Source: Podarcis pityusensis
Lineage: Eukaryota
DNA length: 64,000 nt
Assembly (NCBI GenBank): GCA_964106645.2
Contig: OZ067040.1
Direction: 5' to 3' (one strand)
Position numbers: made by a program. Shown one piece after another: positions 1,087 to 4,000 of the stretch. How positions within the stretch are numbered: position 1 is the first letter of the stretch; each line of letters opens with the position of its first letter.

Positions 1087-4000
1087 GCACAATATTTGAT
1101 TTAGTAACTAGCAATGCTCTGTGCTCCTTTGAGGAAGGTCAGGATACAAAAATAGTATAGTTAAAACAACAATAGAAGAAAACAAATTAACTTTATAAAG
1201 AACATCAACTTTATAAACATCTGGGTAGGCTTGTCTAAACAATGATGTTTTTAGCAGTCACCAAAAAGAATACAGTGGTGCCCTGCAAGACGAATGCCTC
1301 GCAAGACGAAAAACTCGCTAGACGAAAGGGTTTTCCGTTTTTTGAGTCGTTCCGCAAGACGAATTTCCCTATGGGCTTGCTTCGCAAGACGAAATGTCTT
1401 GCGAGTTCTTGCGAGTTTGTTTCCTTTTTCTTAAAGCCGCTAAGCCGTTAATAGCCGCTAAGCCGTTAATAGCCGCTAAGCCGCTAATAGCCGCTAGGCC
1501 GTTAATAGCCGCTAAGCCGCTAATAGCCGCTAAGCCGCTAATAGCCGTGCTTCGCAAGACGAAAAAACCGCAAGACGAAGAGACTCGCGGAACGGATTAA
1601 TTTCGTCTTGCGAGGCACCACTGTACAGTGAAGGCGCCTGCTTGATAGCAATAGACAAGGCATTCCAAAGTGTAGGTCCTGCCACACTAAACAGTTATGA
1701 TGCATCATGCATAAAAATAAATCCAGTGTTTCCTATCTGTCTTTTGACGATATAGTTTTAAAAAACAAGGATTTCATCGCATTTTGATAATCTAGCAAGT
1801 GCACACAAGGCTCACTCACCTTTTCTTCAACACAGATGGGACTATTTCGCTGCCTACATCTGATATCCTACGAGATGCTTTCATCATTGTTGGTGGCAAA
1901 GTAATTGAGCTTTGTATTCTTCTTTTGGCTTTAATATAACAAATCACATTACGCATTTGGCCCATTCAGAAAGAAGTCCAATATAAAACTATAGCTTCAA
2001 AAAATCATAATTTCCTTGCGTTGGTGGTATAGTGGTTAGCATAGCTGCCTTCCAAAAAAATCATAATTTCCTATACAATTGATTTTACACTTTAATTACA
2101 AGAATATTTTCCACTTGGAGCCTAAACCAGCTCATCCTAAACCATTGCTGAGCTACAAATATTCACCAAGTACTAATTGTTTTCTGTGGTGTGCAAGTTG
2201 CACTTGTCTCTAAAATTATCTGACCCATCAATGCCTCAATATTCTGTGTTGGAGGAACCAAGTTTCTCCAAATACCTTTGATATTAAGGGCAAAGAGATA
2301 TCAGTGGTCCCACAGACCACATGCTGAAAAGCAAGAATTACAGAAAGACACACAGAACACTTTCTATTATACTTCTTACACATTTATCATATCACTAAAA
2401 ATTAGACTTGTAATGCATTCACTTACGCGGTTGTAATGTATCCTTTTGAATCATTATTTGAAGAAATGAATCAAGAATTCTGCAGATATTCATTACAATC
2501 CCCATCTGATGTATAGGGAATGGTTGCATTTTCTTACGTTCATTCAGAAAGTTCATCCCTTTTTTTACACTTGAGTGAAACAAGCTTGATAAGTACTCAA
2601 TATCATTTTGTGCCAATAGTTCAGAAAAGCCTTCTAACCATGTACTGACATATGGTTCCCATCCCAGATCAACTGGATCCTACAATAAAACAAATGAACA
2701 GATTTTCAGAATTGCTTCTACATTGCTTCTGCATATTTACGTTCTTTATATCTAGATTCTGCTTGTGAAATATGAAACATGCACATACATTTTCCTACTA
2801 TGATACAGATCAGCTATCTGTTCCATGTCTTGGGGAAAATGTGCTATACAGATTTTCTACATGGGAACAGATGTCCATGTAGAAAGTTGCAATGTTTGAA
2901 ACGGCTTCCATAAGGATGATATCTTTGGTTGGCATTGGCAAAGGATGCTAGTTTATAAATGCTTACTCTTTAAGTTTTTCAACTTGTACAAGAAGAAAAT
3001 GCTAACATTTTTGTGCCTTTTCTTTTTCTTCTTTTTCTTTATATCACTTTATTTCTTTATAATTCAAAAGTTTTCAATAAAATATTGAAAAACAGGCAAA
3101 AAAGAGAAAAATACAAGAAAATACTAAATAAACAAAACATAAAATGTTTAATACAGAACATACATTGTTCCAGCAATTTGCTACTCAGGGCCGCGTCAGA
3201 CAAAGTAGTTCCATTAGCCCAATAATTTTTGTCTGCACAATTAAACTTCCTCTCCCTGGGTGCCACCCCCCGTAGATTTAAAAGAAGCATATTATACCCA
3301 ATGGGGATTCCAAGTGGGGAATCTATGATCTTGAGAGAGATCAAGGCAATTATTTAACCAGGGCATTAAAAGAAATAACAGGTCTATTGTGCTATCATCC
3401 CCCTGATCAAAATGCTCAGGGAAATATTGAGATGAAGAATGAAATCAAGGAAGTATCCAAAATACATGTTGTAATAACAGGGGAATTCAACTATCCACCC
3501 ATAGATTGGCTACATATGTGTTATAGTCATGACAAAGAGGTAAAATTTCTCGATACCCTACATGATGATAGCCTAGAATAATTGGTGCACTTCCAGTCTG
3601 CAAATGGTGCCATGAGCAGCGACTACCCCGCCTGTCTCTGCTAATTGCCTTCAGGACAACTTCACTTATTTCACTTTCCATCTTTGCTGAGAATGTTAAA
3701 AGAAAGTATGAAATATCATATGAGTAAAAACGTTATTTAAAAAACCTACCACGTAAACCATAGCACATCTACTAACAGTAGCAGGGCTGGCCTGAGAGAG
3801 GCTGTCCACTTCAAAAATCATTCTGATTGCTGGTGATAAGTAGATTCTTTCACTATTAGGAAGGCATAACACTCTGGAGTCATCTAGCACAGAATTTAAA
3901 TTTTCTATCCAAACTGGGTCTACTGGCCCATCCAAGATAATCCATTGCCAGTCATTAATACTTTCACCTACAAAAGAATAAACAAATAAGAATGTCAGAA

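What the first reader, a model, noticed from the sequence alone, without database searches (positions are those of the whole stretch)
1999..2072. Tailless retrocopy of a 5' tRNA-Gly(TCC) half in a non-mammalian genome
Seen: nt 1-38 of tRNA-Gly-TCC, with no mismatch to the sequence as I recall it, stop right after the anticodon (TCC at 2051-2053 = positions 34-36). The fragment lies between perfect 18-bp direct repeats. There is no added poly(A): the tRNA's own AA merges with the A-run of the target, which is TTC/AAAAAA, close to the L1 endonuclease consensus TT/AAAA. One untemplated T sits at the 5' junction. Known: this is the signature of L1-mediated tailless retropseudogenes, which I recall being described mainly from therian mammals; 5' tRNA-Gly halves are abundant anticodon-cleaved small RNAs, for example in sperm. 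Inference: a recent germline insertion showing that squamate L1 machinery retroposes tRNA halves or primes internally on the anticodon loop.
Basis: partly seen in the sequence, partly recalled or inferred. Interest (0 to 1): 0.75.

Follow-up and report, generated by a model that had tools for sequence, protein, structure and literature searches.

The report
Tailless tRNA-Gly retrocopy in lizard intron
A 38-base copy of the front half of a glycine tRNA, pasted between two identical 18-base repeats in a lizard dynein gene intron, is a dead by-product of a jumping-gene enzyme of a kind already described in mammals and the green anole.

Summary
Window 1999-2016 and 2055-2072 are identical 18-mers. 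Between them lie one T, 36 bases that read as tRNA-Gly(UCC) positions 1-36, and one extra A. The piece matches the human Gly-TCC-2-1 sequence printed in PMC4928997 at 37 of 38 positions, so "no mismatch" is not confirmed. The repeat is not chance (0 of 200 simulated windows) and not a tandem array. The piece is unique in the window.

The window is lizard DNA. A reverse-transcriptase ORF is 77-85% identical to Podarcis muralis proteins. The piece lies antisense in an intron of an axonemal dynein heavy chain gene. I could not confirm that the gene is DNAH14.

Best reading: a tailless retropseudogene made by target-primed reverse transcription. The nick site TC/AAAAAAT fits the published tailless consensus at 8 of 9 positions. 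An L1-type enzyme is most likely but not shown.

It is not new as a kind. Tailless 5S, U2 and U6 copies are already in print for Anolis. It is a new member of a known kind, of low interest. Whether the template was a whole tRNA or a pre-cut half stays open. No lizard genome could be searched, so the empty-site test was not done.

The parts
1996..2004 (-). Inferred first-strand nick site. On the + strand it reads TTC/AAAAAA. On the - strand it reads TTTTTT/GA, cut between the complements of 1999 and 1998.
   Evidence: Position of the 5' edge of the target site duplication. It matches TT/AAAA at 5 of 6 positions and the tailless consensus TT/WAAAAWW of Noll 2015 at 8 of 9. The nick itself is inferred.
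1999..2016 (.). 5' copy of the 18-nt target site duplication
   Evidence: 100% identical to 2055-2072. Flanks unrelated. No tandem array.
2017..2017 (+). One extra T at the 5' junction, belonging neither to the duplication nor to the mature tRNA
   Evidence: Its origin is inferred: either non-templated addition by the reverse transcriptase or base -1 of a precursor.
2018..2053 (+). tRNA-Gly(UCC) positions 1-36: 5' acceptor arm, D arm, 5' anticodon arm and loop up to anticodon TCC (2051-2053)
   Evidence: Rfam tRNA, model 1-37, 3'-truncated. (printed human and tRF sequences, one difference at position 20). (unique in the window).
2054..2054 (+). One A beyond the duplicated target, read as tRNA A37. 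The next A (2055) could be A38 or the target.
   Evidence: 7 A at 2054-2060 against 6 A at 1999-2004.
2055..2072 (.). 3' copy of the 18-nt target site duplication
2422..2679 (-). Open frame holding the upstream exon of the host gene (Dynein_AAA_lid profile 1-52). The matched part is about 2434-2592.
   Evidence: Exon edges were not determined.
763..1107 (-). Open frame holding the next exon (Dynein_AAA_lid profile 53-92). The matched part is about 889-1008. The insert lies antisense in the intron between the two.

Best explanation
It is a tailless, 3'-truncated retrocopy of tRNA-Gly(UCC), made by target-primed reverse transcription. It has no function of its own.

Steps:
1. A LINE endonuclease nicked the minus strand at TTTTTT/GA (inferred from the edge of the duplication).
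2. The freed T-run primed on the two adenosines A37-A38 of the anticodon loop rather than on a poly(A) tail. This is inferred. It fits the single extra A and the end of likeness after A38.
3. Reverse transcriptase copied the RNA back to its mature 5' end, G1 (shown by the content).
4. One extra base was added at the 5' junction (inferred).
5. A second nick 18 nt away on the plus strand gave the 18-nt duplication (shown).

The enzyme is most likely an L1-clade 'relaxed' LINE, as proposed for all tailless retropseudogenes. Within this reading I favour internal priming on a whole tRNA over a pre-cut half, at about 60:40.

The copy keeps the A-box region but lacks the whole 3' half of the tRNA. 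From general knowledge of pol III promoters, that half holds the B box. The copy therefore should not be transcribed or spread. It sits antisense in a dynein intron and is best taken as neutral.
For: - A perfect 18-nt duplication directly flanks the insert. It is not chance (0 of 200 simulations) and not a tandem array.
- The insert is only T + 36 nt + A.
- The 36 nt align in register to tRNA model positions 1-37. They match the printed human tRNA-Gly-UCC at 37 of 38 through A38, then not at all.
- The truncation lies in the single-stranded, A-containing anticodon loop. No A-tail was added: 7 A against 6 A.
- The nick site fits TT/WAAAAWW at 8 of 9. The whole anatomy fits the description in Noll 2015: truncation in loops, preference for A-rich internal sites, perfect duplications.
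- An 18-nt duplication is far longer than the 1-9 bp reported for L2-made chimeras.
- The Bov-B Tn-TA signature is met at only 1 of 3 features.
- The same window holds a poly(A)-ended 1.9-kb insert with a 12-nt duplication, so A-tail-type retroposition has acted at this locus.
- Tailless copies are documented in a lizard.
Against: - No L1 ORF2 is visible in the window. The two LINEs with reverse-transcriptase domains look L2-like or unclassified. One ends in (ATT)n, and neither gives an L1 ORF2p hit in the PDB.
- Position -1 of the nick site is C, not T.
- Only 1-2 nt of template-target complementarity can be read, which is the bottom of the published 2-18 nt range.
- Bov-B is very abundant and young in Podarcis muralis and ends in (CAA)n. 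That matches the C36-A37-A38 end of the piece. A quarter of its duplications (88 of 353) lack the Tn-TA motif.
- The Rfam score of the piece is below any threshold.
- I could not compare with the lizard's own tRNA gene or with an empty orthologous site.
Confidence: 0.7

Rival explanations
1. Same L1-type target-primed reverse transcription, but the template was a pre-cut 5' tRNA-Gly(UCC) half, cleaved in the anticodon loop by an angiogenin-like or RNase T2-like nuclease, not a whole tRNA.
For: - The end point (36-38) lies where tRNA halves end.
- The 2025 preprint 10.1101/2025.02.02.635956 finds tRNA/LINE-1 chimeras that carry about nt 1-37 and argues for halves as the source (passages).
- The complementarity to the target is minimal, 1-2 nt.
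Against: - Noll 2015 looked for A-tailed truncated 5S and U2 copies and for matching small RNAs, found none, and concluded internal priming.
- The extra A at 2054 means the template reached at least A37. That is beyond a cut between C36 and A37, which I recall (no call) as the preferred CpA cut of angiogenin.
- One locus cannot separate the two readings.
Confidence: 0.25
2. A non-L1 LINE made it, above all Bov-B (RTE clade). Its 3' end in Podarcis is (CAA)n, so its reverse transcriptase could start on the CAA of the anticodon loop (C36 A37 A38).
For: - Bov-B_PMu ends in (CAA)2-6 and its duplications start with A.
- P. muralis has 52,041 Bov-B hits, 96% of them under 15% divergence.
- 88 of 353 duplications lack the Tn-TA motif.
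- U6 chimeras with L1, L2 and RTE-like LINEs exist in Anolis.
- A Bov-B-like tail ORF appears to lie at 63038-63247(-). That motif is recalled, not tested.
Against: - The Tn-TA signature is met at only 1 of 3 features. The duplication starts with A, but -1 is C and there is no T-stretch about 10 nt upstream.
- An A6 run at the nick is the L1 hallmark.
- RTE and L2 LINEs are held to need their own 3' tail on the template.
- L2 gives 1-9 bp duplications.
- Noll 2015 found no tailless copies in platypus and chicken and few in RTE-dominated afrotherians.
Confidence: 0.08
3. Not retroposition. Either a DNA-level event (filler DNA captured at a repaired break, or a small duplication) or an assembly or library artefact.
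For: - Nothing positive.
- The insert is very short.
- Only one assembly window was seen.
Against: - An 18-nt staggered duplication that exactly brackets the insert, an A-run at the 3' junction and an exact mature 5' end are not what end joining or a chimeric read gives.
- It is not a tandem duplication. Only the 18-mers repeat, and the flanks are unrelated.
Confidence: 0.04
4. A 3'-truncated copy of a tRNA-Gly-headed SINE rather than of the tRNA itself.
For: - Tailless copies of tRNA-related SINEs are known.
- Squamates carry several tRNA-headed SINEs.
Against: - 37 of 38 identity to a human tRNA is far closer than I would expect of a SINE head (general knowledge, no call).
- There is no second copy within 14 mismatches in 64 kb.
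- The one tRNA-like SINE head in the window, 13092-13164(-), is unrelated.
Confidence: 0.03

Closest known systems
Tailless retropseudogenes (Schmitz et al. 2004; Noll et al. 2015, PMC5322556)
   Same: - Intact 5' end of a small RNA.
- 3' truncation in a loop at an A-containing site.
- No oligo(A) tail.
- Perfect target site duplication.
- Nick site close to TT/WAAAAWW.
- tRNAs were the founding source.
   Different: - The host is a lacertid-like lizard.
- In lizards only 5S rRNA and U2 copies of Anolis are listed. I found no tRNA-derived lizard case in print (searches).
- The complementarity to the target is only 1-2 nt.
- Schmitz 2004 itself was not held. I know it only through citing papers.
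3'-truncated U6 snRNA processed pseudogenes of Anolis carolinensis (Doucet et al. 2015, PMC4476161)
   Same: Small-RNA retrocopies in a lizard, truncated at the 3' end, many with target site duplications (25 3'-truncated among 41 analysed, 20 with duplications). The priming model is the same.
   Different: The source RNA is U6, not tRNA, and the host is an iguanian, not a lacertid.
tRNA/LINE-1 chimeric insertions (preprint 10.1101/2025.02.02.635956)
   Same: The tRNA part is about nt 1-37, with 9-19 bp duplications and an endonuclease motif.
   Different: Those are fused to an L1 segment, mostly antisense to it, and are from mammals. Here no LINE segment is attached.
tRNA-headed SINEs of squamates (Sauria SINE and others)
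   Same: tRNA-derived 5' sequence spread by a LINE enzyme.
   Different: A SINE has a body and a LINE-derived tail and occurs in many copies. This piece has neither and is unique in the window.

Membership tests
Tailless retropseudogene | Begins at or near the 5' end of a small cellular RNA | tested here: met
   2018 aligns to tRNA model position 1 and to G1 of the printed human tRNA-Gly-UCC. One extra T precedes it.
Tailless retropseudogene | 3' end truncated in a loop or other single-stranded, A-rich stretch of the RNA | tested here: met
   Likeness ends after A37/A38 of the anticodon loop.
Tailless retropseudogene | No oligo(A) tail added | tested here: met
   7 A at the 3' junction against 6 A in the 5' copy of the target, so one A at most is not target.
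Tailless retropseudogene | Flanking target site duplication | tested here: met
   18 nt, 100%. 0 of 200 simulations reach it.
Tailless retropseudogene | Target site near TT/WAAAAWW, complementary to the last 2-18 nt of the annealed RNA | tested here: inconclusive
   The motif is met at 8 of 9 positions (C at -1). Complementarity is only 1-2 nt (A37, A38), at or below the published lower limit.
Tailless retropseudogene | Made by a relaxed L1 active in the host germ line | not testable with these tools
   No L1 ORF2 in the window. No lizard genome could be searched.
Functional tRNA gene | Complete cloverleaf with acceptor stem, T arm and B box | tested here: not met
   ARAGORN finds 0 genes. Rfam at gathering score gives 0 matches. 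Only model positions 1-37 of 71 are present.
Bov-B (RTE) insertion, Tn-TA signature | Duplication starts with A, T at -1, T-stretch about 10 nt upstream | tested here: not met
   The duplication starts with A (met). Position -1 is C, and positions -8 to -13 read A T C A A A counting outward, with no T-stretch. In P. muralis 265 of 353 Bov-B duplications carry the motif.
tRNA-headed SINE | tRNA-related head plus body plus LINE-derived or A-rich tail, in many copies | tested here: not met
   The insert is 38 nt in all. There is no other copy within 14 mismatches in the window. Only 64 kb was examined.
Retrocopy of a pre-cut 5' tRNA half | Template RNA already ended in the anticodon loop before reverse transcription | not testable with these tools
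   Needs small-RNA 3' ends from the germ line and a genome-wide set of end points.

The most novel reading that the evidence does not exclude
The copy was made by Bov-B, not L1. The reverse transcriptase of this 'stringent' RTE-clade LINE ends its own RNA in (CAA)n in Podarcis. It would have started on the CAA of the tRNA's anticodon loop (C36-A37-A38). That would mean a LINE thought to need its own 3' tail can make tailless copies of cellular RNAs by microsatellite-like microhomology alone.
Probability: 0.08. Interest if true: 0.55.

Novelty: new member of a known kind. Interest (0 to 1): 0.25.

Why it matters
- **Main value.** It is one clean, well-preserved example that the tailless route of retroposition acts on tRNAs in a lacertid-like lizard. 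This extends the 5S, U2 and U6 cases of the green anole. It fits the published prediction that lizards have a relaxed L1 system.
- **As a marker.** Such insertions are nearly homoplasy-free presence/absence markers.
- **As a lead.** A genome-wide set from lizards, where L1, L2, CR1, RTE and R4 coexist, could show two things by nick-site logos and end-point spectra: which LINE clades can prime on untailed RNAs, and whether whole tRNAs or tRNA halves are the templates.
- **Limit.** This single locus answers neither question and has no likely effect on the host gene.

Tried and rejected
- **Rfam on 1900-2200.** Only two chance matches on the minus strand (Plastid-psbA-1 at E 0.54, snR65 at E 3.7). 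Both are driven by the repeated 18-mers. Rejected.
- **Exact 30-mer in papers.** 0 papers. I used a 10-mer motif instead (116 papers) and read four of them.
- **Schmitz 2004.** Not held by DOI or PMC id.
- **Gene name.**
  - One exon ORF searched with 'longer' reaches only 2000-residue proteins. The best hit is a shark DNAH6-like protein at 56% identity.
  - The PDB search gives inner-arm dyneins, with DNAH6 the best vertebrate chain at E about 2e-18 to 4e-18, not clearly ahead of DNAH3, DNAH1 and DNAH7.
  - DNAH14 is neither confirmed nor excluded.
  - Exons were searched one by one. The joined spliced model was left out.
- **L1 in the window.**
  - Pfam scanned 154 open frames: the 149 frames of 78 aa or more, plus 5 shorter ones picked by eye.
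  - It found endonuclease and reverse-transcriptase domains at 26307-29062(+), reverse transcriptase at 17220-18285(+), and a weak sub-threshold endonuclease-type hit at 3282-3578(+) (E 0.00089, 19.6 bits, cut-off 27.4).
  - Two ORFs of the 26.3-29.1 kb LINE were sent to the PDB; the RT at 17220-18285 was not. The endonuclease ORF gave 0 hits. The reverse-transcriptase ORF gave only 4 weak retron or group II hits.
  - Its 3' end is (ATT)n. No L1 was shown.
- **The 1.9-kb poly(A) insert.** Its ORF P0100 has no Pfam family above cut-off and no homologue. The atlas gives only weak leads. It stays unclassified.
- **Folding the 38-mer.** z-score 0.30, uninformative.
- **SINE-head idea.** Tested against the one tRNA-like element of the window and rejected.
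- **Collections.** No orthologous or genome-wide comparison was possible.
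Full report
**What is there**

Window 1999-2016 and 2055-2072 are identical 18-mers, AAAAAATCATAATTTCCT. Between them lie the following:
- one T at 2017;
- 36 bases at 2018-2053 that end in TCC (2051-2053);
- one A at 2054.

The A-run at the 3' junction has 7 A (2054-2060) against 6 A in the 5' copy (1999-2004). At most one A is therefore not target DNA, so no tail was added. 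The three bases before the 5' repeat are TTC.

**Is it a tRNA piece?**

ARAGORN finds no tRNA gene in the 64 kb. Rfam at gathering score finds nothing. That is expected for half a tRNA.

Given alone, 2018-2055 aligns to Rfam tRNA model positions 1-37 of 71 and is flagged as cut off at the 3' end. The 5' acceptor arm, D arm, 5' anticodon arm and loop CUUCCAA are in register. The score is weak: 12.6 bits against a cut-off of 29, E 1.1.

The stronger evidence is identity to printed sequences, compared by eye:

| Printed sequence | Paper | Identity |
|---|---|---|
| human tDR-Gly | PMC9786188 | 29 of 30 |
| tRF-1:29-Gly-TCC-1 | PMC10878346 | 28 of 29 |

- The one difference is always position 20 in the D loop (T here, G there).
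- After A38 the human tRNA and the window have nothing in common.
The T may be the lizard's own isodecoder or a later substitution, and I could not see the lizard's tRNA genes.
- The exact 30-mer occurs in 0 papers of the library.

**Is it more than chance?**

- None of 200 first-order Markov simulations of the window holds an exact direct repeat of 18 nt or more within 200 nt. One of 200 reaches 16 nt and 18 of 200 reach 14 nt.
- The composition probability of this 18-mer is about 1e-10.
- The real window has 25 such pairs, nearly all in tandem arrays.
- This pair has unrelated flanks (58 pairs kept of 125 raw). No TRF array overlaps it (4 arrays in 1-3000, none at 1999-2072).
- The 36-mer is unique. 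BLAST with 7-nt words and an ungapped scan of both strands find no other site within 14 mismatches.

**Where is it?**

- *Host gene.* I searched exon-sized open frames one by one and did not build the joined spliced model.
  - On the minus strand they match DHC_N2, AAA_6, AAA_5 and Dynein_AAA_lid. The gene is a dynein heavy chain.
  - The frames 2422-2679(-) and 763-1107(-) match consecutive parts of the AAA-lid profile (1-52 and 53-92).
  - The insert therefore lies in the intron between them, antisense to the gene.
- *Paralogue.* Not resolved.
  - The 'longer' protein search only reaches 2000 residues. Its best hit is a shark DNAH6-like protein at 56% identity.
  - In the PDB the best vertebrate chain is DNAH6, at E about 2e-18 to 4e-18, not clearly ahead of other inner-arm dyneins.
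  - This is compatible with DNAH14 but does not show it.
- *Taxon.*
  - The reverse-transcriptase frame 17452-18285(+) has 92 hits. The best eight are all Podarcis muralis proteins at 77-85% identity.
  - Varanus, Anolis and Naja follow at about 50-60%. One plant-labelled record also appears at 60%.
  - The window is squamate and most likely lacertid. It is not human.

**How it was made**

The anatomy is that of a tailless retropseudogene as set out by Noll et al. 2015 (PMC5322556; I read the introduction and the results and discussion). The defining traits are:
- the intact 5' end of a small RNA;
- truncation in a loop with a preference for A-rich internal sites;
- no oligo(A) tail;
- a perfect duplication;
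- a consensus target TT/WAAAAWW.

Here the target reads TC/AAAAAAT, which is 8 of 9 against that consensus and 5 of 6 against TT/AAAA.

The steps I infer are these:
1. A nick on the minus strand at TTTTTT/GA.
2. The T-run pairs with A37-A38 of the anticodon loop.
3. Reverse transcription runs to G1.
4. One extra base is added at the 5' junction.
5. A second nick falls 18 nt downstream.

Only the content of the insert and the duplication are shown directly. The nick, the priming and the enzyme are inferred.

**Which enzyme?**

- *For an L1-type enzyme.*
  - The A6 run at the nick.
  - The 18-nt duplication. L2-made U6 chimeras have 1-9 bp duplications (PMC4476161, section 10).
  - Noll 2015 found no tailless copies in platypus and chicken.
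  - A poly(A)-ended 1.9-kb insert with a 12-nt duplication lies in the same window. Of 48 A-runs of 7 or more on both strands, only these two have a real flanking repeat.
- *Against an L1-type enzyme.*
  - I found no L1 ORF2 among 154 open frames scanned with Pfam.
  - The LINE at 26.3-29.2 kb ends in (ATT)n and gives no L1 ORF2p hit in the PDB.
- *Bov-B is a real rival* (PMC13295347, passages and tables).
  - In P. muralis it has 52,041 hits, 96% of them under 15% divergence.
  - It ends in (CAA)2-6, which equals C36-A37-A38.
  - Its duplications start with A.
  - But its Tn-TA signature (T at -1, a T-stretch about 10 nt upstream) is carried by 265 of 353 duplications and is absent here (-1 is C, no T-stretch).
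- *My weighting.* L1-type about 0.7-0.75, Bov-B or another LINE about 0.1, non-retro or artefact about 0.04, SINE about 0.03.

**Whole tRNA or tRNA half?**

- Noll 2015 argue for internal priming. They found no A-tailed truncated copies and no matching small RNAs.
- The extra A at 2054 shows the template reached at least A37, which mildly favours internal priming.
- One locus cannot decide.

**Age**

At 0.0013 substitutions per site per million years (the rate used in PMC13295347), a perfect 18-nt duplication has a 5% chance of surviving unchanged for about 64 million years. The figure falls to about 32 million years if the 36 nt are also taken as unchanged. 'Recent' therefore means no more than that.

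**Function**

None is expected. The copy lacks the 3' half of the tRNA. From general knowledge of pol III promoters, that half holds the B box, so the copy cannot be transcribed as a tRNA or spread. It lies antisense, roughly 380 nt from the Pfam-matched part of the nearest exon frame (exon edges not determined).

**Novelty**

- The kind is known, and known in a lizard.
  - Noll 2015 state that the green anole is the only non-mammal in which they found tailless retropseudogenes. They predict a relaxed L1 system in lizards.
  - Their supplement lists Anolis 5S and U2 loci (one of the supplementary files could not be searched).
  - Doucet 2015 list 25 3'-truncated U6 copies among 41 analysed in Anolis, 20 with duplications.
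- I found no tRNA-derived lizard case in print.
  - Searches: 'tailless retropseudogenes', 25 papers, and a six-term search with lizard terms.
  - Subscription journals and Schmitz 2004 (not held) were not seen.
- It is a new member of a known kind.

**What stayed unchecked**

The following were therefore not done:
- the empty-site test;
- the comparison with the lizard's own tRNA genes;
- the genome-wide scan.

Noticed in passing
window 7855-9779: A 1901-nt insert that ends in AATAAA plus A9 and is flanked by a 12-nt direct repeat (7855-7866 and 9768-9779). Its 251-aa ORF (8678-9430, +) has no Pfam family above cut-off, no homologue in the near-length search, and only weak atlas leads. It looks like a poly(A)-type retrocopy of unknown source.
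   Followed up: partly
window 1271-1625: A MITE-like element in the same intron. It has 24-nt terminal inverted repeats (92%) and an inner 18-nt tandem array at 1431-1547.
   Followed up: partly
window 26307-29192: A LINE on the + strand with endonuclease and reverse-transcriptase domains split over three frames, ending in (ATT)n. It gives no L1 ORF2p hit in the PDB, and its clade was not determined.
   Followed up: partly
window 17220-18285: Reverse-transcriptase frames on the + strand. The best hits are Podarcis muralis proteins at 77-85% identity, and other squamates score about 50-60%. One hit is labelled as a plant (Tanacetum), probably a mislabelled or contaminant record.
   Followed up: partly
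window 13092-13164 (-): A tRNA-like sequence just under the Rfam cut-off (25.4 against 29 bits), probably a SINE head. It is unrelated to the tRNA-Gly piece.
   Followed up: partly
window 7243-7380 and 24290-24371: AT-rich hairpins that hit several miRNA families on both strands, far below their cut-offs. They are most likely inverted repeats of small transposons.
   Followed up: no
window about 49300-50270: A GC-rich repeated block, open in all six frames and with many short direct repeats. Its nature is unknown.
   Followed up: no
window 4404-4421 and 4529-4546: Another exact 18-nt direct repeat, 125 nt apart, with a partial third copy between. Not explained.
   Followed up: no
window 63038-63247 (-): An open frame whose translation looks to me like the C-terminal end of a Bov-B/RTE LINE protein. 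The resemblance is recalled. Pfam gave no hit.
   Followed up: no
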